From: Mobula hypostoma | Lineage: Eukaryota | Assembly: GCF_963921235.1 (NCBI RefSeq) | Contig: NC_086097.1 | Location: 3,410,001-3,474,000 of the forward strand | DNA length: 64,000 bases | Direction of reading: 5' to 3' | Part shown: piece after piece, positions 2,554 to 43,297 of the stretch | Layout of the letters: each line of letters begins with the position of its first letter | Position numbering within the stretch: the first letter of the stretch is position 1 | Notes under the pieces: model-generated | What the model was told of the DNA's origin: nothing | Seen by the model: the letters and a program-made list of their open reading frames with translations, nothing else | The model's database searches: none | Translations under genes and position numbers: made by a program

Positions 2554-2653
2554 TTAAATGAGTACACTGTTTCTGTCCACCATTTTGTTGTTTTGGGAAG
2601 TCATTGCATATTCCGTTCGGCTTGTCCCATTTTCTTCTTTCCGCATGGGCTTC
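2554..2653 (-). CDS. PRIMA1: PRIMA1 terminal coding exon (cytoplasmic tail and stop codon)
   Basis: Minus strand has a pyrimidine tract then ggaaacag|G AAG CCC ATG CGG AAA GAA GAA AAT GGG...ATT TAA = (R)KPMRKEENGTSRTEYAMTSQNNKMVDRNSVLI*. This resembles human KPLRKDENGTSVAEYPMSASQSNKGVDVNNAVV, and its phase matches the CG| end of the 38224 exon. It is not in the ORF track. Confidence 0.93.
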
Positions 2654-4277
2654 CTGTTTCCGGTGCGGGAAGGGTGGTTAAATGCAAAGAAAAACAGAAC
2701 AGAAAAAAATCGTGTTAACTGTCAGTACTTGTTAATCATGTGAACTGAATACTTTAGGGAAGGGATACATTTTGCAAGGTTAAAAATGGAATTTTCCACT
2801 GTTTTAGGAAAAGAAAGTTAAGCTAGGCTTTGATTAATTGAGGAAAGCAGTGACAATTTTTAACTTCCACTTCGGCATCTAAAACTGTCGAAATGTCTTT
2901 TTGAAATAATCAGTTTAACAAATTTTGTCACAAATAAAATGACAGGATATCCACATTAATCAGGCTTTTGCAAACTACCAATACTCCTTCACCCTGGCAA
3001 GTAGTTAATGTGGCTACTTTAGGTCCAAGTTCAAGTTTATTGTCACCTGACTGTACATACATACAACCAAATGAAACAACGTTCCTCCAGACACAGTTCA
3101 CCACACACATCACACATGAAACAAAATATTACCGCAAATAAGGTAATAAAATACCATGCCAAGTGCAGCTCAGTTAAAGAGTAAACAGTCAACAGCTCGC
3201 TCTGCTAGTGGTGAGATCTCAGCGACGGCAGGGTGTTCATGAGTCTTACATGAATTTTATTTTCCTGTTTGCACTTCAACCCATTTGTAAAGCACCTTGA
3301 ACCACATCTTCTAAATGAAAAGTGCTCTATAAATAAATTATTATTATTAGATTTGTATCTTTATTTTTATTCTCTGCAGAAGCTGGTAAAACCGGAGGTA
3401 CAGGCACATCCAAGCACACCCATTTCTCAATTGCTAGGAACTTTCAGACTATTCTAGTAGTGCTTAGTATTGTGGCTTTCAGGAGATTTATATAAATATG
3501 GCTGTGTAGGCCTAATTGTTCAATGCTAGTGTGTAGTGACTTTGGGATGACATCAGTTGTAGAAATTACTATTGAGACAATGTATATCCTGTTCATGTTC
3601 CATAGTCTTTCAATTTCCTCTTTTAATTCAGCATGTTTCTGGTGTTTTTCATTTCTTAATTTCTGGATGTTATGTATGTTCGGAATGGCTATATCTATTT
3701 GTTCTAGCTTGTTTATCTTCTATTATTATATGCTGACGGTGACTATGGTTGTCCTATCTGTAGCAATGGATCAGTTGAATTACAACTTGTAGGAATCTGA
3801 CTGTAGAATCCTGGAATGTGTTCCATTGTTTCTGGTTTCACTTCACATTTTCTGCATTTATCATCATGAATTTGTTGGTCTTTGATTATTAGCATGATTG
3901 TGATGATGACTATTATTATTATTTACATATCACATGATCTATTGATCTATTAGGTCACCTCTCAGCCTCCTTTATTCTGAGGAAAACAAGCCCAGCCAAT
4001 CCAACCTCTTCCCAGAACTGACCAGCTTTCCTCCAAACCAACCAAAATCCTGGTGAACCTTCTCTACACCTTCCATTGCAAACGTGTCAACCCTACAGCA
4101 GGGAGACAGATCAGCACATTGCACCCTGGGAGCAACCTAGTAATGTTTTGTAAAGTTGTAATACAACATCCTGACTCTTACAGATCAATTACACTGCACA
4201 GAAATAGGCCCAGTGGCCCGACGTATCTATTCAGACTCAGGTGCCTAGCAAGGACAACATGCACATCCTCCTACCTC

Positions 4278-11550: not shown

Positions 11551-13322
11551 ACCATAAGACGTAGGAGCAGAATTAAGCCAACAGGCGCATGGAGTCTGCT
11601 CCACCATTCAATCATGGCTGATCCTTTTTTTCCCCTCTTCAGCCCCCCTCCCCAGCCTTCTCCCCGTAACCTTTGATGTCATGTCCAATCGAGAACCTAT
11701 CAACCTCTGCTTTAAATACACCCAATGACCTGGCCTCCGCTGCTGTCTGTGGTAGCAAATTCCACAAATTCACCACCCTCTGGCTAAAAGAATTTCTCCA
11801 CATCTCTCTTTTAAATGGACACCCCTTACCCTGAGGTTGTGTCCTCTTGTCCAAGACTCCCTGACCATAGGAAACATTCCTATCCAGATCTACTCTGTCT
11901 AAGCTTTTCAATGTTCAAAAGGTTTCAATAAGATTCCCCCCCCCCCATCCTTCTAAATTCCGACTACAGACCCAGAGCCATCAAATGTTCCTTATGATAA
12001 CCCTTTCATTCCAAAAATCATCCCTCTGAACCTCCTCTGGACCCTTTCCAATGCCAACACATCTTTTCTGAGATGAGGAGCCCAGAACTGTTCACAATAC
12101 TCAAGGTGAGGCCTCACCAGTGCCTTATAAAGCCTCAGCATCACATCCCTGCTCTTGTATTCTCGATATCCTGAAATGAATGCTAACATTGCATTTACCT
12201 TCCTCACCACCAACTCGACCTGCAAATTAACCTATAGGGTGTTCTGCACAGGAACTCTCAAGTCTCTTCGCATCTCAGATTTTTATATTTCCTCCCCACT
12301 TAGAAAACAGTCTGCACATTTATTTCTATGACTTAAATGCATGACCATATATTTTCTAATATCGTATTTCACTTGTCACATTCTTGCCCATTCTCCTAAT
12401 CTTCCTAAGTCCTTCTGTATTCTCTCTACTTCCCAAACATCTGCCCCTCCACCAGTATTTGTATCATCTGCAAACTTGGCAACAAAGCCATCTATTCCAT
12501 CATCTAAATCATTGATGTACAGCATAAAAAGAGGCGGTCCCAACACTGATGCCTGCGGAACACCACAAGTCACTGGCAGACAACCAGAAAAGGATCCTTC
12601 TATTCCCACTCGCTGCCTCCTTCTAATCAGCCAATGTTCTAACCATGTTAGTAACTTTCCTGTAATACCATGGGCTCTTAACTTGGTAAGCAGCCTCATG
12701 TGTGGCACCTTGTCAAAGGCCTTCTGAAAGTCCAAATATACAACATCCACTACATCCCCTTTATCTATCCTACTTGTAATCTCCTCAAAGGATTGCAATA
12801 GGTTCGTCAGGCAGGATCTTCCCTGAAGGAAACCATATGACTTGATTCTGTCTTGTCCTGTGTCACCAAGTACTCCATAACCTCAACCTTAACTGACTCC
12901 AAAATTTTCCCAACCACTGAAGTCAGGCTAACTGGTCTTTAATTTCCTTTCTGCTGCCTTCTTCCTTTCTTAAAGAGTGGAGTGACATTTGCAATTTTCC
13001 AGTCCTCTGGCACCATGCTGAGTCCAGTGATTTTTGAAAGATCACTACTAATACTTCCACTACCTCTTTCGGAATCCTGTGGTGCAGTTCATCTGGTCTG
13101 GCTGACTTCTGTACCCTTAGGTCTTTCAGCTTTTTGAGCACCTTCTCCCTTGTAATAGTAACTGCACTCACCTCTCTTCTCTCACACCCTTCAACACATG
13201 GCACACTGCTAGTATCTTCCACAGTGAAACCTGATGCAAAATACTCATTTAGTTCATCTGCCATCTCCTTGTCCCTTGTTATTATTTCTCTTGCCTCATT
13301 TTCCCCCGGTCCTATATCCACT
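11551..13322 (-). mobile_element. Decayed CR1 LINE (RT to 3' end)
   Basis: Minus ORFs contain [21 protein letters not shown] and LVRPHLEYC. Confidence 0.9.
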
Positions 13323-13707
13323 CTTCCCTCTTTCCTCTTCTCTTCTCCTCACCTGCCTGTCACTTCTGTTTGGTGCCCCACCTCCTTCATTTTCTCCCAT
13401 GGTCCACTTGCCTCTCCTATCAGATTCTTTCTTCTCTGGCCCTTTACTTTTACCGCCTGATGGGCCAGATGGCTGACTCCTGCTCCTATTTGTTGTGTTC
13501 TTATGTCACCTCTCAGCCTCTCACTTCATTTATCTGGTTTCATCTATCACCTTCCACCTTCCAGTTTGTCCTCCTTCCCTCCTCCCACCTTATTCTGGTT
13601 TTATCCCCCATCCTTTCCAGCCTTGGTCCGAAACATCAACTGTTTATTGATTTCTATAGGTGCTACCTGACCTGCTGAGCTCTCCCAGTATTTCGTGTGT
13701 GTTACTC
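13323..13707 (+). mobile_element. Old Penelope-like element 3' (pLTR) fragment
   Basis: Pyrimidine-rich tract followed by ccgaaacatcaactg...tgacctgctgag...tcgtgtgtgtt, homologous to the PLE termini at 15340-15477 and 20950-21084. Confidence 0.6.
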
Positions 13708-13909
13708 TTGAGGATCAAGATTCAGGTCAGTTTCCATCGAGTCTGACTAATGTGTTGGAAACATAACTCCATTTCAAGATGTAGACAGTGGAAAGATGGA
13801 AATCTTTGGATATGAACAATAATTGGTATATTTTTTAAATTAAATAAAAATAATTAATTTTAGGTTTATTATTTATTCTTATCCAAGTACTCTTTCTAAC
13901 TAAACATTT

Positions 13910-15477
13910 TTTTGTTGGGTTTGTGGAACAATCTATGTTCCGTGCCTATTCTGGTATCTGTCCCCCACTTTTCCTTCGCTACATCGACGACTGCATTGGC
14001 GCTGCTTCCTGCACGCATGCAGAACTCGTTGACTTTATTAACTTTGCCTCCAACTTTCACCCTGCCCTCAAGTTTACCTGGTCCATTTCCGACACCTCCC
14101 TCCCCTTTCTAGATCTTTCTGTCTCTGTCTCTGGAGACAGCTTATCCACTGATGTCTACTATAAGCCTACTGACTCTCACAGCTATCTGGACTATTCCTC
14201 TTCTCACCCTGTCTCTTGCAAAAACGCCATCCCCTTCTCGCAATTCCTCTGTCTCCGCCGCATCTGCTCTCAGGATGAGGCTTTTCATTCTAGGACGAGG
14301 GAGATGTCTTCCTTTTTTAAAGAAAGGGGCTTCCCTTCCTCCACTATCAACTCTGCTCTTAAACGCATCTCCCCCATTTCACATACATCTGCTCTCACTC
14401 CATCCTCCCGCCACCCCACTAGGAATAGGGTTCCCCTAGTCCTCACCTATCACCCCACCAGCCTCCGGGTCCAACATATTATTCTCCGTAACTTCCGCCA
14501 CCTCCAACGGGATCCCATCACTAAGCACATCTTTCCCTCCCCCCCCCCTGCATTCTGCAGGGATCGCTCCCTACGCAACTCCCTTGTCCATCCGTCCCCC
14601 CCATCCCTCCCCACTGATCTCCCTCCTGGCACTTATCCACGTAAGCGGAACAAGTGCTACACATGCCCTTACACTTCCTCCCTTACCACCATTCAGGGCC
14701 CCAAACAGTCCTTCCAGGTGAGGCATCACTTCACCTGTGAGTCGACTGGGGTGATATACTGCGTCCAGTGCTCCCGATGTGGCCTTTTATATATTGGTGA
14801 GACCCGACGCAGACTGGGAGACCGCTTTGCTGAACATCTAAGCTAAGCTCTGTCCGCCAGAGAAAGCAGGATCTCCCAGTGGCCACACATTTTAATTCCA
14901 CATCCCATTCCCATTCTGACATGTCTATCCACGGCCTCCTCTACTGTAAAGATGAAGCCACACTCAGGTTGGAGGAACAACACCTTATATTCCGTCTGGG
15001 TAGCCTCCAACCTGATGGCATGAACATTGACTTCTCTAACTTCCGCTAGGCCCCACCTCCCCCTCGTACCCCAGCTGTTACTCATTTTTATGCACACATT
15101 CTTTCTCTCACTCTCCTTTTTCTCCCTCTGTCCCTCTGAATATACCTCTTGCCCATCCTCTGGGTCACCCCCCCCCTTGTCTTTCTTCCCGGACCTCCTG
15201 TCCCATGATCCTCTCGTATCCCCTTTTGCCTATCACCTGTCCAGCTCTTGGCTCCATCCCTCACCCTCCTGTCTTCTCCTATCATTTTGCATCTCCCCCT
15301 CCCCCTCCAGCTTTCAAATCCCTTACTCACTCTTCCTTCAGTTAGTCCTGACGAAGGGTCTCAGCCTGAAACGTCGACTGCACCTCTTCCTACAGATGCT
15401 GCCTGGCCTGCTGTGTTCACCAGCAACTTTCATGTGTGTTGCTTGAATTTCCAGCATCTGCAGAATTCCTGTTGTTT
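13910..15477 (+). mobile_element. Penelope-like element: RT C-terminus, GIY-YIG endonuclease and 3' pLTR; 5'-truncated
   Basis: ORF 13923-14846 has LRYIDD, LPFLD and VYYKPTD, then FTCESTGVIYCVQCSRCGLLYIGETRRRLGDRFAEHL. A short duplication (ctaagctaagc, ~14838-14848) shifts the frame. A pyrimidine-rich 3' region and a hammerhead motif follow. Confidence 0.93.
15343..15380 (+). ncRNA. Minimal type I hammerhead ribozyme motif in the PLE terminus
   Basis: agtc-CTGACGA-agg(gtctcag)cct-GAAA-c-GTC-gact: stem I, the CUGANGA box, stem II, the GAAA box, and a GUC cleavage triplet ending at 15375. Confidence 0.8.
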
Positions 15478-15509
15478 GATTTTAAGACTATTGCTGCATT
15501 AGATGATGA

Positions 15510-15888
15510 GTATAAAATCCTAAAGGGATTGGACAGGCTAGATGCAGGAAGATTGTTCCCGATGTTGGGGAAGTCCAGAACGAGGGGTCACAGTTTGAGG
15601 ATAAAGGGGAAGCCTTTTAGGACCGAGATTAGGAAAAACTTCTTCACACAGAGAGTGGTGAATCTGTGGAATTCTCTGCCACAGGAAACAGTTGAGGCCA
15701 GTTCATTGGCTATATTTAAGAGGGAGTTAGATATGGCCCTTGTGGCTAAAGGGGGTCAGGGGGTATGGAGGGAAGGCTGGGGCGGGGTTCTGAGTTGGAT
15801 GATCAGCCATGATCATACTGAATGGCGGTGCAGGCTCGAAGGGCTGAATGGCCTATTCCTGCACCTATTTTCAATGTTTCTATGTCTC
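15510..15888 (+). mobile_element. Young CR1 3' fragment (same family as 4278-7735)
   Basis: Near-identical to 7355-7735. Confidence 0.92.
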
Positions 15889-16327
15889 TAAGTATAGTAG
15901 ATTATGCCTGGTCAAATTGTCTTACAAATCAGAGACACACGGGGGACTGCAGAGGCTGGGATCTGGAGCAACAAGCCATCGGCTTATAGTATTCAGCAGC
16001 TCTACAACATGCCAGGGTCAACGTCATGACATAGAACTTCATTATAGAAAGCAATAAAATATATAAATGTTCCATTTTAAATATATTTCTAAACAACCAT
16101 TTCAGGATTATAATTAAGATTGGCTTAGCTCAAAACTCCAATATCAAGTTCAAATTTAATTGTCAATCAGCCATGCCCACGAACACAGCCAAATGAGACA
16201 GCATTCCTCCAAGGGTCAAGATGCAAAACACATTAGCAAAAGTCACACACAGCCTAAGTGTGAGTTCCACGTTACAACCGAGGGCACACAGCTTCCTTGC
16301 CCTCAGTCTCTTCAGTGACAGTGTTCG

Positions 16328-17237
16328 GCGGCAGTGTTAGCTGCGAGGAGGATGCTAAGAGGATGCAGAGTGACTTGGATAGGTTGGGTGAGTGGGCAAA
16401 TTCATGGCAGATGCAATTTAATGTGGATAAATGTGAAGTTATCCACTTTGGTGGCAAAAATAGGAAAACAGATTATTATCTGAATGGTGGCCGATTAGGA
16501 AAAGGGGAGGTGCAACGAGACCTGGGTGTCATTATACACCAGTCATTGAAAGTGGGCATGCAGGTACAGCAGGCGGTGAAAAAGGCGAATGGTATGCTGG
16601 TATTTATAGCGAGAGGATTCGAGTACAGGAGCAGGGAGGTACTACTGCAGTTGTACAAGGTCTTGGTGAGACCACACCTGGAGTATTGTGTGCAGTTTTG
16701 GTCCCCTAATCTGAGGAAAGACATCTTTGCCATAGAGGGAGTACAAAGAACGTTCACCAGATTGATTTCTGGGATGGCAGGACTTTCATATGAAGAAAGA
16801 CTGGATGAACTGGGCTTGTACTCGTTGGAATTTAGAAGATTGAGGGGGGATCTGATTGAAATGTATAAGATCCTAAAGGGATTGGACAGGCTAGATGCAG
16901 GAAGATTGTTCCCGATGTTGGGGAAGTCCAGAACGAGGGGCCACAGTTTGAGGATAGAGGGGAAGCCTTTTAGGACCGAGATTAGGAAAAACTTCTTCAC
17001 ACAGAGAGTGGTGAATCTGTGGAATTCTCTGCCACAGGAAACAGTTGAGGCCAGTTCATTGGCTATATTTAAGAAGGGAGTTAGATATGGCCCTTGTGGC
17101 TATGGGGGTCAGGGGGTATGGAGGGAAGGCTGGTGCAGGGTTCTGAGTTGGATGATCAGCCATGATCATAATAAATGGCGGTGCAGGCTCGAAGGGCCGA
17201 ATGGCCTACTCCTGCACCTATTTTCTATGTTTCTATG
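16328..17237 (+). mobile_element. Young CR1 3' fragment (same family as 4278-7735)
   Basis: Near-identical to 6818-7730 (ORF 16297-17238), with a tttctatg tail. Confidence 0.93.
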
Positions 17238-17819
17238 AATCACTGAATCGACTTGCAGTATTCTACATCACCAATGCAATCACAATAAAAATGTCCAAGA
17301 CAGGCACTTGCACCAACTGTTGGATGGTGCACGACCTCTGATGGGGTCTTGCCGGCAGCAACACGGAACACAACAAGTCCAGCTCCACTCGCTGGTGGGG
17401 TAGAGCTGCAGCACTCCATGTTCCAGTGTCTTGTGATCGTAAAAATGAAAATTACACCTTTGTTTGGACCTTGAACCCAAATGTGAGGTGAGAATGACTG
17501 GTCCTGACACACAAGGCAGCCCCGACACATGAGTTATGACGGAATCCATAGGGCCAAGTGTCCACTGGCTGCTGTTATATTGACCATCAATGGAAGATGG
17601 CTGTGCTTGTTGGGTTTATTATTCTTAGCCCCAGATCATCTTCACAGCCAGAAGTGAGAGATCTGCTGACAACCATGGGGCAGCTAGCTCCAGTCACAAT
17701 TCCTTGAGTAATGATACAACCAGACTTGAGTCACAGTCAGAAATAAACAGTAATATTAATGTCCCTCCTGAAGGGGGCTTGACCAAATCCCCGCCCCCCC
17801 CCCCACAAGGCTTCCTTTG

Positions 17820-20864: not shown

Positions 20865-21084
20865 TACACAAAATGCTGGAGGAACTCAGCAGACCAGGCA
20901 GCATCTATGGAAAAGAGTACAGTCAATGTTTCTGGCTGAGATCCTTCTTCAGTCCTGATAAAGGGTCTTGGCCCGAAACGTCGATTGTACTCTTTTCCGT
21001 AGATGCTGCCTGGCCTGCTGAGCTCCTCCAGCAATTTGTGCGTGTTTCTCGGATTTCCAGCATCTGCAGATTTTCTCTTGTTTG
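20865..21084. mobile_element. Fold-back (inverted pLTR pair) Penelope-derived element with a mutated hammerhead
   Basis: 20865-20945 is a diverged reverse complement of 20960-21040. The centre reads cagtc-CTGATAA-aggg tcttgg ccc-GAAA-cGTC-gattg. Confidence 0.8.
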
Positions 21085-21189
21085 CAATTCATTTACATAT
21101 TTTTATTTATTTAGAAACACAGTGTGGAACAGGACCCCTACCAGCCCACGAGCCGCACCAACCATCAACCCACCTATTCAACCCTGCCC

Positions 21190-38100: not shown

Positions 38101-38223
38101 AATGTTTATATTTTGCTTTTTTTTTCCCCTCAATTCAGATGATGTTCCTTGTTTCAGCCGCCAATATACAATAATTCACATGGGGACACGTTTTTCAATG
38201 ATACACGGAGAGTTTCACCTTAC

Positions 38224-38353
38224 CGTTTAATTGCTTTGTAGCAGATAATAACAGCCACCACCAGGAAGGCAAGCGTAGCACATCCCACCGCAATTACAAT
38301 CACCATGTCCGTCCACCAGGGCTTCAATGGCGGATAATCTGTTGGCTTTACAA
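38224..38353 (-). CDS. PRIMA1: PRIMA1 internal coding exon (transmembrane exon, equivalent to mammalian exon 4)
   Basis: Minus strand reads ...tctctcttttacag|TTGTAAAG...ATTAAACG|gtaagg: 130 bp, phase 1 to phase 2. It encodes xVKPTDYPPLKPWWTDMVIVIAVGCATLAFLVVAVIICYKAIKR, which aligns without gaps to human PRiMA as recalled (WWSGLVIIIAVCCASLVFLTVLVIICYKAIKR). Confidence 0.95.
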
Positions 38354-38591
38354 CTGTAAAAGAGAGAGAAAGACATAACTTTGACAGTTTGTGCTGAAAT
38401 GACACACTATTTTGTTAGCTGTGCTCCAGTAAGCCTGATGGGAAATGAGTGTCACAACTCTCCCAGCTCAGACTTGAGGGCAATTTGCAAAACCTGGCCA
38501 TGATCTGATCATATTAAGCTCTGCAGAATTCACACCTAACATCATTTTTACCACAAATTGCTTGGCATTGTTGCAAAATAACAGATAATTA

Positions 38592-40715: not shown

Positions 40716-41735
40716 GTTCAAAGTAAATTTATTACCTAAATACATATATGTTGGCATTTTCAACCCTCAGACTCATTTTCATGTGTGAACACTCAATAAG
40801 TCTATAGAATAATAACCATAACAGAATCAGTAACAACAAACTGTGCAGGTATCAAAAGAAGGAAATAATAATAAATAAATAAACAAATAAGCAATGAATA
40901 TCGAGAACAAGAGATGAAGAATCCTTGAAAGTAAGTCCATTGCTTGTGGGAACATTTCAATGATGGGGCAAGTGAAGTTATCCCTTTTGGTTCAAGAGCC
41001 TGATGGTTGAGAGGTAATAACTGTTCCTGAACATGGTGGTGAGAGTCCTGAGTCTCCTGTATCTTCTTCCCGATGACAGCAGTGAGAAGAGAGCATGGCC
41101 TGGTTAGTGTGAGTCCTTGATGATGGATGCTGCTTTCTTCCGACAATTCCTCCATAGAGTTGTGCTCAATGGTTAGCAGGGCTTTATCTGTAACGGTCTT
41201 GGCTGTATCTACTACTTTTTGTAGGATTTTCCATTCCAGGCCACTGGTGTTTCCACATTAGGCTGTGACGCAGCTGATCAGTCTGCACATCTATAGAAGT
41301 TTGTCAAAGTTTTAGATGACATGCTGAATCTTCGCAAATTCCTAAGGAAGTAGAGGTGTTGCCTTGCATTCTTCATAATTACACTTGCATGCTGGGTCCA
41401 GAACAGGTTCTCCAAAAAAATAACACCAGGAATTTAAAATTGCTGACCCTCTCTGCCTCTGATCACCCGATAAGAACTGGCTCATGAAACACTGGTTTCC
41501 TTTTCCTGAAATCAAAAATCACTCTTTGGACGTGCTGACATTGAGATGTTGCGGCACCAATCAGCCAGATTTTCAGTCTCCATCCTGTATGCTGATTCTT
41601 CACCACCTTCGAGTCAGTCTATGACGGTGGTATCATCAACAAATTTGAATATGGTTTTGGAGCTGTGCTTAGCCACATTGTAATAGGTGTAAATCAAGTC
41701 GAGCAGGGGACTAAGCACACAGCCTTGTGGTGCCA
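40716..41735 (-). mobile_element. Decayed Rex1/Babar 3' portion
   Basis: [11 protein letters not shown] and FKFVDDTT (ORF 41614-41805), with the reversed tail gttcaaagtaaatttatt. Confidence 0.82.
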
Positions 41736-41808
41736 CTGATAATATTGCTAACCTGTTTAATAAATATATTAAAACTGACAGTAGCAAATTGAATTCCTTT
41801 AACATTTA

Positions 41809-42025
41809 TCAAAGTTGCTGGTGAACGCAGCAGGCCAAGCAGCATCTATAGGAAGAGGTGCAGTCGACGTTTCAGGCCGAGACCCTTCGTCAGGACTAAC
41901 GAAGGGTCTCGGCCTGAAACGTCGACTGCACCTCTTCCTACAGATGCTGCTTGGCCTGCTGCGTTCACCAGCAACTTTGATGTATGTTGCTTGAATTTCC
42001 AGCATCTGCAGAATTCCTGTTGTTT
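41809..42025. mobile_element. Young fold-back Penelope-derived element
   Basis: 82-bp inverted arms (41809-41890 / 41899-41980) with one mismatch and an 8-nt spacer. The right part closely matches 15351-15477. A flanking direct repeat cctttaacattta lies at 41796-41808 and 42026-42038. Confidence 0.92.
41861..41898 (-). ncRNA. Minimal type I hammerhead ribozyme motif, sense to PRIMA1 pre-mRNA
   Basis: Minus strand reads tagtc-CTGACGA-agg(gtctcgg)cct-GAAA-c-GTC-gactg. Confidence 0.8.
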
Positions 42026-43297
42026 CCTTTAACATTTAAATAGGAAGAACATGATTGAGAAAGCTTGCTGTCAGAAATATTTAGAATACCGAAAGAGTCT
42101 GACTACCGATCATGTCAGTGAGACAAGGCCTACAGTTATTTTTAAGTATTTTGTAGGGTGTTTTTGTTGTGTCTGTACAACTACATATCCATTAAATAAA
42201 AGCATGCACGTGGAGGTGATGTCAACTGGTGTATTGTCATTGTAGGGGAAGGACAACAAATCAATGGGCATGGGGAAGTTATCAGTCCATAATCTGTGCT
42301 AACAGGAGTCATTACGCTAAAAGAAATAGATCCATACATTACACCTCCTCCCTCTTTAGCAACACAAAACTGTATATGTAACAAAACAATTAACTTCCCT
42401 CTAACAAATCATACTCAAATAAACATACCTTCACGATAACAGTCCATAAATAACTTCACTATACTAACGATTCAGGCTTCTGGGTGGCGGTCTGCGTCTT
42501 TCAGGGTAGCGCCTTTGGACCTGTGGAGTGGCATTAGTTTTGGCAGGTGTCTTGTCAAAGGCAACTTTGTCTGTTGCAGGTGTCCCATCGCTGTTGGTGA
42601 CAGGATTATCACTGAGAGGTAAGTCCGGTGACTGTAAAGTGTCCATCTTGTTGGACACAGACAAACAGGTGTGTTCTTTGGTTGAGCATCCAGTATCTGG
42701 TCCACATGATGTCACCATATCTGATCTCAACGTCCACTGTGTACATCAGTGGTCCAGTTCTTGAAGTTATCCTGCCGGGTGTCCACTTGTCTTCTGGGCT
42801 ATCAAGTGCTAGAACTCCCTGTCCAATCTCGAAGCTCCTTGCTGATCTACTTGGCAACTGGCTGAACTGTTTACTCTGCACTTCCCTCTGGAGGTCTGGT
42901 TTCAGGAGATCTATGTGAGATCTCAGATTCCTGCTCATGACAGCATTGCAGATTTTGATTTGTGAACTGTATTCTGACAAACGGAAAGGAAGTTGTCCAT
43001 TTCTTGCTGTGGAGAAGCGTCCTCCTTGACAATCACTTTAATGGACTCCCTGAATGTTTGGACAAACCTTTCAGCTAACCCATTTGTTGGTGGGTGGTGG
43101 GGAACTGACTTGAAATATCTGATGCTATTTTTCCTTCATGAATAGTCTGAACTTCTCTTACGTGTATTGTGGTCTGTTGTCACTCACAATTTGTTCAGGT
43201 AAGCTATTTCTGGAGAGGACAGTCTTCAGAGCAGAAACAGTCTTTTCTGAGTTGGTTGACTTCACTGGTATGACCTCCAGCAACTCTGAATGAGCAC

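What the first reader, a model, noticed from the sequence alone, without database searches (positions are those of the whole stretch)
41796..42038. Young 217-bp fold-back element with an intact hammerhead ribozyme on the PRIMA1 pre-mRNA strand
Seen: 82-bp inverted arms with one mismatch, an 8-nt loop, a 45-bp unpaired 3' extension and a 13-bp TSD. The minus strand carries a complete minimal type I hammerhead (agtc CUGACGA agg..ccu GAAA c GUC gacu). The plus-strand copy lacks stem I and reads CUAACGA. Established: Penelope-like elements carry minimal hammerheads in their pLTRs, which often cleave best as dimers, and can have inverted partial pLTRs. Inference: this is either a non-coding ribozyme-bearing mini-element mobilised by the PLE family at 13910-15477, or an extremely truncated insertion. 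In PRIMA1 pre-mRNA, the already-transcribed arm could sequester the ribozyme in a long hairpin, giving a self-silenced switch or a dsRNA substrate.
Basis: partly seen in the sequence, partly recalled or inferred. Interest (0 to 1): 0.7.

Follow-up and report, generated by a model that had tools for sequence, protein, structure and literature searches.

The report
Truncated fold-back Penelope retroelement insertion
This is a short, hairpin-shaped leftover copy of the tail end of a very abundant Penelope-like jumping gene, lying in an intron of PRIMA1; it is one of tens of thousands of such leftovers in this genome and is ordinary.

Summary
There are 82-bp inverted arms with one mismatch, an 8-nt loop, a 43-nt one-sided 3' extension and a perfect 15-bp target-site duplication. 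A hammerhead-like motif lies on the minus strand, which is the PRIMA1 sense strand.

Both arms are the 3' end of a Penelope-like element (PLE) family whose 32-nt tail occurs 34,850 times in this 3.48-Gb genome. In a position-ordered sample of 30 tails, 16 insertions have this layout: an inverted arm joined to a direct arm. Fifteen of the 16 lie wholly inside their locus. All 15 have their own duplication, all 15 centres differ, and none matches this one.

This exact centre recurs 177 times. That is not exceptional, because two control junctions recur 4 and 24 times. The copies carry at least 9 haplotypes, 7 of them also seen in ordinary PLE copies. They therefore arose repeatedly and are not one self-propagating family.

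The outer ends fall at two alternative element ends about 35-45 nt apart, like the two reverse-transcription start sites published for an Anolis PLE.

The hammerhead is the parent's own minimal motif. Its activity is untested, and here it is buried in a hairpin of -198 kcal/mol.

Verdict: an ordinary dead-on-arrival PLE insertion. An earlier scan note on another genome reached the same reading.

The parts
41794..41808 (.). Left copy of the 15-bp target-site duplication TTCCTTTAACATTTA
   Evidence: exact direct repeat with 42024-42038.
41809..41890 (-). Inverted arm. It is PLE sense on the minus strand and holds PLE 3'-region sequence from the edge of hammerhead helix I outward. It stops just short of the inner ('proximal') of the family's two alternative 3' ends and has no tail.
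   Evidence: 94% identity to the window's PLE copy (reference positions 1486-1584, minus); in sister copies this arm reaches 0-17 nt further out.
41861..41898 (-). Complete hammerhead-like motif of the parent PLE: helix I UAGUC/GACUG, CUGACGA, helix II AGG/CCU, GAAA, then CGUC with the predicted cut after C41866.
   Evidence: by inspection. Identical to the commonest motif in 26 parent copies. Not recognised by Rfam.
41891..41898 (.). 8-nt loop CAGGACTA at the fold-back centre. It is part of a 12-nt imperfect palindrome, GTCAGGACTAAC.
   Evidence: The 32-nt centre occurs 177 times in the genome.
41899..41980 (+). Direct arm, PLE sense on the plus strand. Its hammerhead copy lacks the 5' strand of helix I and reads CUAACGA.
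   Evidence: 93% identity to PLE reference positions 1486-1628 (95% over 128 nt in the second comparison)..
41981..42023 (+). PLE 'tail': a 43-nt extension present on one arm only. It ends about 11 nt short of the longest tails seen in sister copies.
   Evidence: The 32-nt core of the tail has 34,850 exact copies. The concept comes from Craig 2021 (PMC8557442, passages) and Frangieh 2024 (PMC11167929, main text).
42024..42038 (.). Right copy of the target-site duplication
13850..15490 (+). 5'-truncated copy of the parent PLE family, holding the end of the reverse transcriptase, a GIY-YIG-like region, the hammerhead motif at 15343-15380 and the tail.
   Evidence: A sister copy's ORF hits GIY-YIG at E 9.4e-4, below the Pfam cut-off. 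Atlas neighbours carry HTH_animal, GIY-YIG and RVT_1.
38220..38366 (-). PRIMA1 exon (PF16101 positions 78-126). The fold-back lies in the intron upstream of it.
   Evidence: E 2e-13, 61.2 bits, over the cut-off.

Best explanation
The element is a single, dead-on-arrival insertion of a very active endonuclease-positive Penelope-like element (PLE) family. It consists of two 5'-truncated copies of the PLE's last 90-130 nt joined head to head, flanked by one 15-bp target-site duplication.

Shown here:
- Both arms are PLE 3'-end sequence.
- Elements of this family end at one of two alternative places about 35-45 nt apart. The arm without the tail stops at or just inside the inner end, and the other arm carries the tail to the outer end.
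- The inverted-plus-direct layout is the commonest insertion form of this family.
- Centres differ from insertion to insertion.
- Copies that share this centre arose many times from different PLE source variants.

Inferred: during target-primed reverse transcription the nascent cDNA turned back on complementary DNA. That DNA was either a second cDNA primed from the other nicked target strand or the cDNA's own stem. The turn used a 2-nt microhomology inside the imperfect palindrome at the 5' edge of the hammerhead.

The hammerhead is a passenger: it is the parent's own minimal, dimer-type motif. In PRIMA1 pre-mRNA the complementary arm is transcribed first, and the motif is locked in a perfect hairpin of about 85 bp. 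Self-cleavage is therefore not expected. The only plausible activity is as a generic long double-stranded RNA.
For: Abundance. 40 of 40 scored genome hits are full length at 97-100% identity, from 775 candidates. The tail 32-mer occurs 34,850 times and its reversed control 0 times.

Own duplications and ragged ends. 30 of 30 examined look-alikes have their own 11-16-bp duplication, and both outer ends vary.

Position-ordered sample (the first 30 tail matches on contig 1).
- 16 of 30 are inverted plus direct and 14 are direct only.
- 15 of the 15 composites that lie wholly inside their locus are flanked by a 10-16-bp duplication.
- The 15 centres all differ, and 0 of 30 have this centre.
- The inverted arm's outer end lies at reference positions 1581-1605 in 13 of 15 and never includes the full tail (0 of 15).

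Two element ends. Parent copies end either with the tail (17 of 26) or at the inner end without it (9 of 26). This parallels the two reverse-transcription start sites, and the nicking and extension of both target strands, shown in vitro for an Anolis PLE (PMC11167929, main text read).

Known layout. An adjacent inverted 5'-truncated copy and a 30-40-bp tail at one end are published hallmarks of PLE insertions (PMC8557442, passages).

Recurrent origin.
- At 4 polymorphic site pairs the two arms carry complementary states in 27-29 of 30 copies, with two or three paired states each.
- 16 of 21 copies with both arms read have identical arm haplotypes.
- 9 haplotypes occur in both arms of at least one copy, and 7 of these are also found in ordinary PLE copies.
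- Control junctions recur at 4 and 24 places.

Hairpin. -197.9 kcal/mol, z -25.7. The hammerhead shape scores -6.3 against an MFE of -12.5 kcal/mol for the isolated 49-mer.

A second, older fold-back of a related subfamily lies in the same window.
Against: - This junction is commoner than the two controls tested (177 against 24 and 4). Some preference for this site, or some copying of fold-backs, is not excluded.
- The window copy and L001 are independent insertions, yet they are 100% identical over 215 nt. They share the same A.C arm mismatch at a polymorphic site, and L026 shows the same mismatch on another haplotype. Chance mutation after insertion explains this poorly.
- The samples are small (30, 30 and 20 loci). 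The first 30 look-alikes were chosen by similarity to this copy.
- The joining mechanism is not resolved. Both orientations of the asymmetric centre relative to the tail occur, 11 to 16 among the first 27 listed places. Simple snap-back of a tail-bearing cDNA predicts only one orientation.
- PLE identity of the parent rests on a sub-threshold GIY-YIG hit (19.9 bits against a 22.6 cut-off), Atlas neighbours and motifs read by eye. The window's own ORF gave no Pfam hit.
- The mapping of the two element ends onto the Anolis start sites is by analogy, not by alignment.
Confidence: 0.85

Rival explanations
1. A self-propagating, non-coding fold-back mini-retroposon. The whole hairpin is transcribed and copied by the PLE enzyme, so copies with this centre descend from fold-back masters.
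For: 177 exact copies of the 32-nt centre at dispersed places. 30 of 30 examined copies have their own duplications. L001 and the window copy share the same arm mismatch although they are independent insertions. Left ends look like 5' truncations of one fixed end.
Against: - At least 9 haplotypes occur, matched in both arms, and 7 of them are shared with ordinary PLE copies. A founder lineage would need the same changes in both arms again and again.
- The same centre occurs with the tail on either arm, 11 to 16. One form cannot be copied from the other.
- Other junctions recur too.
- In Anolis the RNA needed by the enzyme extends beyond the start site, so an inserted copy would lack it (PMC11167929, main text). 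Applying this to the present family is an analogy.
Confidence: 0.07
2. A functional ribozyme switch or regulatory double-stranded RNA element, recruited by PRIMA1 and acting on its pre-mRNA.
For: The complete motif is on the sense strand of the intron. A long, perfect intronic hairpin is a plausible substrate for RNA-editing or dicing enzymes; this rests on general knowledge and was not tested here.
Against: - The copy is young and is one of thousands of like insertions.
- The motif is buried in a -198 kcal/mol hairpin.
- Even in isolation the hammerhead shape is not the favoured fold.
- Published PLE hammerheads cleave poorly and need dimers or protein (PMC4209133 passages; PMC11167929 main text).
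- There is no sign of selection.
Confidence: 0.03
3. A miniature inverted-repeat DNA transposon, or a microRNA-type hairpin gene.
For: Long inverted arms and a duplication. Weak Rfam matches to mir-789, mir-3926 and mir-2131 hairpin models at 41-53 bits.
Against: - The arms are PLE 3'-end sequence reading outward from the centre.
- Outer ends vary by up to 17 and 14 nt, and one end carries an unpaired tail.
- Duplication length varies from 11 to 16 bp.
- All microRNA matches are far below gathering scores of 82-100 bits, and none appears at gathering threshold.
Confidence: 0.01

Closest known systems
Complex insertion units of endonuclease-positive Penelope-like elements: an inverted 5'-truncated copy next to a direct copy, with a 30-40-bp tail at one end (Evgen'ev and Arkhipova 2005 and Arkhipova 2006, as cited in Craig et al. 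2021, PMC8557442)
   Same: An inverted 5'-truncated copy abuts a direct copy, the tail is on one side only, the duplication is of variable length, a hammerhead motif lies in the terminal region, and 5' truncation is severe.
   Different: Both copies are truncated to about 90-130 nt, so nothing but the hammerhead region and the tail is left. The published schemes show the inverted copy next to a longer or full-length unit.
Poseidon PLE of Anolis carolinensis (PAc) in vitro (Frangieh et al. 2024, PMC11167929)
   Same: There are two alternative element ends a few tens of nt apart, with the tail between them. The hammerhead lies roughly 100 nt upstream of the ends. Both target strands can be nicked and extended, which would give two outward-reading arms.
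   Different: This is a different host and PLE lineage. In PAc the ORF starts inside the hammerhead, which was not seen here. Fold-back products were not reported in the parts of that paper that I read.
Minimal hammerhead motifs of metazoan PLEs (Cervera and de la Pena 2014, PMC4209133)
   Same: Type I layout, a CUGANGA...GAAA core, a 5-bp helix I, and no real helix III but a palindromic ACGU that could pair in a dimer. The 3'-splice-site-like sequence ending at the 5' edge of helix I resembles the situation reported for D. virilis Penelope.
   Different: Helix II has only 3 standard pairs, against the 7-8 reported for Schistosoma families. The pair next to the core is A-U instead of the G10.1-C11.1 reported as highly conserved.
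Animal non-LTR retrozymes (Li, Clavereau and Pollet 2026 preprint, 10.64898/2026.07.22.740005; abstract and passages read)
   Same: Short, non-coding, hammerhead-bearing sequences derived from PLE terminal repeats.
   Different: Retrozymes are direct tandem repeats thought to circularise. This is a single inverted pair with no second hammerhead in the same orientation.
Twin-priming inversions of LINE-1 (recalled from general knowledge; no paper read here)
   Same: Both ends of a staggered break may prime reverse transcription, giving an inverted 5' part.
   Different: Twin priming inverts a different, upstream part of the RNA without duplicating it. Here both arms cover the same stretch.

Membership tests
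Penelope-like element insertion unit | Sequence derived from an element that encodes reverse transcriptase plus a GIY-YIG endonuclease | tested here: inconclusive
   The arms are 93-95% identical to the 3' end of the window's copy at 13850-15478. That copy's ORF gave no Pfam hit. A sister copy's ORF hits GIY-YIG at E 9.4e-4, 19.9 bits, below the 22.6 cut-off. Atlas neighbours carry HTH_animal, GIY-YIG (12-20% of members) and RVT_1 (16-56%). YIDD and GIY-YIG-like motifs were read by eye.
Penelope-like element insertion unit | An inverted 5'-truncated copy adjacent to a direct copy, inside one target-site duplication | tested here: met
   for this copy. 16 of 30 position-ordered insertions have the layout, and 15 of 15 complete ones have a duplication.
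Penelope-like element insertion unit | A tail of some tens of nt at only one end | tested here: met
   A 43-nt tail on the direct arm only. 0 of 15 inverted arms carry the full tail. 17 of 26 parent copies end with the tail and 9 of 26 end without it.
Penelope-like element insertion unit | A hammerhead motif in the terminal repeat region | tested here: met
   The motif is present in 26 of 30 parent copies by a pattern match. Its 18-nt 5' half, preceded by 16 free positions and an A or T, occurs 37,433 times.
Hammerhead ribozyme, type I minimal form | Conserved core letters: CUGANGA, GAAA, and U-H at the cleavage site | tested here: met
   CUGACGA, GAAA and GUC on the minus strand. The plus-strand copy has CUAACGA, which changes core position G5.
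Hammerhead ribozyme, type I minimal form | Helices I and II flanking the core, and a palindromic 15.2-16.2 for pairing in a dimer | tested here: inconclusive
   Helix I is UAGUC/GACUG, 5 pairs including one G-U. Helix II is only AGG/CCU. ACGU is palindromic. The shape scores -6.3 kcal/mol against an MFE of -12.5 for another fold, and the fold is no better than shuffles (z -0.39).
Hammerhead ribozyme, type I minimal form | A G10.1-C11.1 pair, reported as highly conserved (PMC4209133, passage) | tested here: not met
   The pair next to the core is A-U in this copy and in the commonest parent motif.
Hammerhead ribozyme, type I minimal form | Match to a curated covariance model | tested here: not met
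   There is no hammerhead family at gathering score in the window, nor at E up to 10 in 41700-42150.
Hammerhead ribozyme, type I minimal form | Self-cleavage | not testable with these tools
   This needs transcription and cleavage assays. The sequencing runs available are contigs without read ends.
Self-propagating non-autonomous retroposon (SINE-like or retrozyme-like family) | Copies descend from a founder of the same structure, with fixed internal architecture and their own lineage | tested here: not met
   At least 9 arm-matched haplotypes, 7 of them shared with ordinary PLE copies. The same centre occurs with the tail on either arm, 11 to 16. Centres vary in the position-ordered sample.
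Miniature inverted-repeat DNA transposon | Fixed terminal inverted repeats at both ends and a duplication of fixed length | tested here: not met
   Outer ends vary by 0-17 and 0-14 nt, there is an unpaired tail, and duplications are 11-16 bp.

The most novel reading that the evidence does not exclude
These tens of thousands of young two-armed insertions may be natural footprints of a PLE-specific integration step. In this reading, both nicked target strands prime reverse transcription, one at each of the element's two start sites. This would explain why the tail sits on one side only. The two cDNAs, usually copied from the same source RNA, are then joined head to head at tiny palindromic microhomologies. 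For this centre, an unrepaired loop heteroduplex would give both loop orientations in roughly equal numbers. That would turn the long-described but unexplained 'complex inverted structure plus tail' of PLEs into a defined mechanism that can be tested against the in vitro system.
Probability: 0.3. Interest if true: 0.5.

Novelty: new member of a known kind. Interest (0 to 1): 0.17.

Why it matters
For PRIMA1 and for ribozyme biology this copy matters little. It is a passenger motif in a dead transposon fragment.

The useful result is a warning. In a genome with about 35,000 young PLE tails, identical fold-back junctions with their own duplications recur by the dozen or the hundred. They must not be read as evidence of a new hairpin retroposon family.

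There is also a modest positive point. The regularities seen here could be followed up genome-wide to constrain how PLEs integrate:
- the tail is on one arm only;
- the outer ends fall at two alternative element ends;
- the two arms share a haplotype;
- both loop orientations occur.

Tried and rejected
- Rfam gave no hammerhead hit. The hairpin-type microRNA matches and a weak match to the UnaL2 LINE 3' element (E 4.3) are far below threshold and were dropped.
- A BLAST-type genome search with the tail alone found nothing, because its words are masked as too common. Exact-pattern counts replaced it.
- RNA evidence: no RNA holder is listed. The four runs laid are contigs of uncertain kind. They pile onto the repeat, leave the unique flanks almost bare, and give no starts, ends or editing calls.
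- Pfam on the window's PLE ORF gave 0 families.
- The Lunse, Weinberg and Breaker paper on dimeric PLE hammerheads is not held. I know it only from citations in PMC6765202.
- A literature search for fold-back, snap-back or twin priming together with Penelope-like found nothing relevant (listing only).
- Centre set by the 5' end of hammerhead-cleaved RNA: rejected. The centre lies about 32 nt upstream of the cut site, and direct-arm starts do not pile up at the cut site.
- A parent variant lacking one A (CCTTCGTTAGTC) as the sole source of this junction: rejected. It was seen in 1 of 26 parent copies, while the fold-backs carry many haplotypes.
- Pure snap-back of a tail-bearing cDNA: this cannot give the window copy's orientation, where the loop is continuous with the arm that lacks the tail.
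- Two primers on one RNA with the inner one leading: this predicts the window form as the majority, which was not seen (11 to 16).
- My first count of 30 of 30 copies in the window's orientation was an artefact of using this copy as the query. Searches corrected it.

Full report
**The observation**

The sequence is as described, with small corrections.
- Arms 41809-41890 and 41899-41980 are 82 nt each and pair with one mismatch, at 41848/41941.
- The loop is CAGGACTA. A 43-nt unpaired extension runs to 42023.
- The element is flanked by a perfect 15-bp duplication, TTCCTTTAACATTTA.
- The minus strand folds into a single long hairpin of -197.9 kcal/mol, with z -25.7 and 0 of 200 shuffles as good.
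- The minus strand carries UAGUC-CUGACGA-AGG..CCU-GAAA-CGUC-GACUG, with the C of GUC at 41866. The plus-strand copy reads CUAACGA and has no 5' strand for helix I.
- PRIMA1 exon matches (PF16101) lie on the minus strand on both sides of the element. It is therefore intronic, and the complete motif is on the sense strand.
- Rfam does not recognise a hammerhead here at any threshold tried.

**What the arms are**

The right arm plus extension is 95% identical to the 3' end of a 5'-truncated retroelement copy at about 13850-15490 in the same window. The left arm is the same sequence inverted.

That element's ORF shows a YIDD reverse-transcriptase motif and a GIY-YIG-like region by eye.
- Pfam finds nothing in the window's ORF.
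- Pfam gives a sub-threshold GIY-YIG hit in a sister copy, E 9.4e-4.
- The protein Atlas places the ORF among clusters carrying HTH_animal, GIY-YIG and RVT_1.

With the hammerhead motif and the tail, this fits an endonuclease-positive Penelope-like element (PLE).

**How common it is**

- The genome has 3.48 Gb in 200 contigs.
- The 32-nt core of the tail occurs 34,850 times exactly, and its reversed control 0 times.
- The 5' half of the hammerhead, behind 16 free positions and an A or T, occurs 37,433 times.
- A search with the whole 215-nt element gave 775 candidates. The 40 that were scored were all full length at 97-100% identity.
- In the 30 loci returned, every copy has its own duplication of 11-16 bp. 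Both outer ends are ragged: the left arm reaches 0-17 nt further out than AGTTGCTGG, and the tail reaches 0-14 nt beyond CCTGTTG.

**Is it an independent family?**

Those 30 copies were chosen by likeness to this one, so I took samples ordered by position instead.

Among the first 30 exact tails on contig 1:
- 16 are inverted plus direct and 14 are direct only.
- The 15 composites that lie wholly inside their locus are each flanked by a 10-16-bp duplication, so each is a single insertion event.
- Their 15 centres all differ, and none is the centre seen here.
- Most insertions are very short, with inner ends clustered between reference positions about 1450 and 1560 of a 1629-nt reference.

The exact 32-nt centre of this copy occurs 177 times. 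Two other junctions taken from the sample recur 4 and 24 times. With roughly half of about 35,000 insertions inverted and most centres within about 100 nt, such recurrences are expected.

Copies with this centre are also not one lineage.
- At four polymorphic site pairs the two arms carry complementary states in 27-29 of 30 copies, with two or three different paired states per site.
- 16 of 21 copies with both arms read have identical arm haplotypes.
- Nine haplotypes occur in both arms of at least one copy. Seven of them are also found among about 45 ordinary PLE copies.

The fold-backs were therefore made again and again from different PLE sources, with both arms copied from the same or a like template.

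**The ends**

Parent copies end in two ways: with the tail (17 of 26) or about 35-45 nt earlier (9 of 26).
- In inverted insertions the arm without the tail ends in that earlier zone, reference positions 1581-1605, in 13 of 15.
- That arm never carries the full tail (0 of 15).

This matches two published descriptions.
[quoted passage not shown] 2021, PMC8557442, passages).
- In vitro, an Anolis PLE starts reverse transcription at two adjacent internal sites with the tail between them, and it nicks and extends both target strands (Frangieh et al. 2024, PMC11167929, main text).

**How the two arms were joined (inference)**

The centre lies in a natural imperfect palindrome at the 5' edge of the hammerhead. 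The parent sense sequence there is CCTTCAGTTAGTCCTGACGAAGG. In the window copy the arm without the tail is continuous antisense sequence through the loop, and the arm with the tail starts 13 nt further in.

I fetched 20 further exact-centre copies.
- The tail sits on the loop-continuous arm in 16 and on the other arm in 4.
- I had skipped seven places because they were already known to have the window's form. Adding them gives 11 to 16 among the first 27 listed places.

Three models were weighed against this.
- Simple snap-back of a target-primed, tail-bearing cDNA gives only one orientation.
- One RNA with two primers, the inner one leading, predicts the other orientation as the majority.
- Two cDNA 3' ends that both stop at the G before UUAGUC, anneal through the palindrome and leave an unrepaired loop heteroduplex predict about 1 to 1.

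I cannot decide between these with the data at hand.

One more observation is unexplained. L001 and the window copy are independent insertions, yet they are identical over 215 nt including the same arm mismatch, and L026 shows the same mismatch on another haplotype.

**The hammerhead**

The motif is identical to the commonest motif of the parent copies. It has the features reported for PLE minimal hammerheads: type I layout, a short helix I, and no real helix III but a palindromic ACGU that could pair in a dimer.

It differs in two respects.
- It has an A-U pair where G10.1-C11.1 is reported as highly conserved.
- Its helix II has only 3 standard pairs (PMC4209133, passages).

In isolation the hammerhead shape scores -6.3 kcal/mol against an MFE of -12.5 for another fold.

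Published PLE hammerheads cleave poorly, as dimers or with the element's protein. In Anolis, cleavage was not needed for insertion in vitro, and no RNA-seq reads end at the cut site.

In the PRIMA1 pre-mRNA the complementary arm is transcribed first and the hairpin wins overwhelmingly. The motif should therefore be silent. A role as a generic double-stranded RNA substrate is possible but untested. The runs available are contigs of uncertain kind and say nothing on this.

**Comparison and verdict**

This is a member of a known kind: a complex PLE insertion unit with an inverted 5'-truncated copy and a one-sided tail, here truncated to little more than the hammerhead region.
- It is not a retrozyme, because there is no direct tandem repeat.
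- It is not a miniature inverted-repeat transposon, because the ends are ragged and one end has a tail.
- It is not a microRNA gene, because the Rfam matches are far below threshold.

I tested the reading independently here. Searches of the held library for fold-back or snap-back products of PLEs found nothing specific (listing only). The general structure is in print.

Noticed in passing
window 20868-21087: A second, older (about 80% identical) inverted-plus-direct PLE insertion of a related subfamily. It has its own imperfect duplication (ATTAATTTACA and ATTCATTTACA) and a centre again at the 5' edge of the hammerhead, but a different junction.
   Followed up: partly
window 15310-15346 and the parent copies L031-L060: Directly 5' of hammerhead helix I the parent reads TTACTCACTCTTCCTTCAG, which looks like a branch point, polypyrimidine tract and 3' splice site. 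Cervera and de la Pena 2014 report that the D. virilis Penelope intron ends at the 5' end of helix I.
   Followed up: no
window 41969-42022: The tail can form a small stem-loop that gives a weak match to the UnaL2 LINE 3' element model (15.9 bits, E 4.3, far below the gathering score of 55). This is probably chance, but the tail is the zone where PLE reverse transcription is reported to start.
   Followed up: no
L001 (G000:C22:156204990-156205204) compared with window 41809-42023: Two independent insertions, with different duplications and different outer ends, are 100% identical over 215 nt. They share the same A.C arm mismatch at a polymorphic site, and L026 has the same mismatch on another haplotype.
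   Followed up: partly
L033 and L046 (G000:C36:92452389-92452978): A head-to-head pair of longer PLE copies with identical haplotypes and a centre roughly 290 nt upstream of the hammerhead. It is an example of the same layout with long arms.
   Followed up: no
window 15480-17240 and 12920-13350: The PLE copy at 13850-15490 sits among ORF fragments of a LINE-like reverse transcriptase. The 3' ORF ending ...FFTQRVVNLWNSLPQE... is repeated at 15370-15891 and 16264-17238. This suggests nested repeats in this PRIMA1 intron region.
   Followed up: no
window 2566-2658 and 38220-38366; C1:3505299-3505505: Three PRIMA1 (PF16101) exon matches lie on the minus strand. The intron that holds the fold-back spans about 57 kb.
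   Followed up: partly
first 100 places listed (contig C1): Among hammerhead 5' halves with a junction within 17 nt upstream, the junction lies directly before GTCC in about 13 cases, and before TAGTCC, TTAGTCC or GTTAGTCC in about 12 more. This hints that cDNA ends pile up at the 5' edge of helix I. The sample is biased by the pattern's first letter and by its design.
   Followed up: partly
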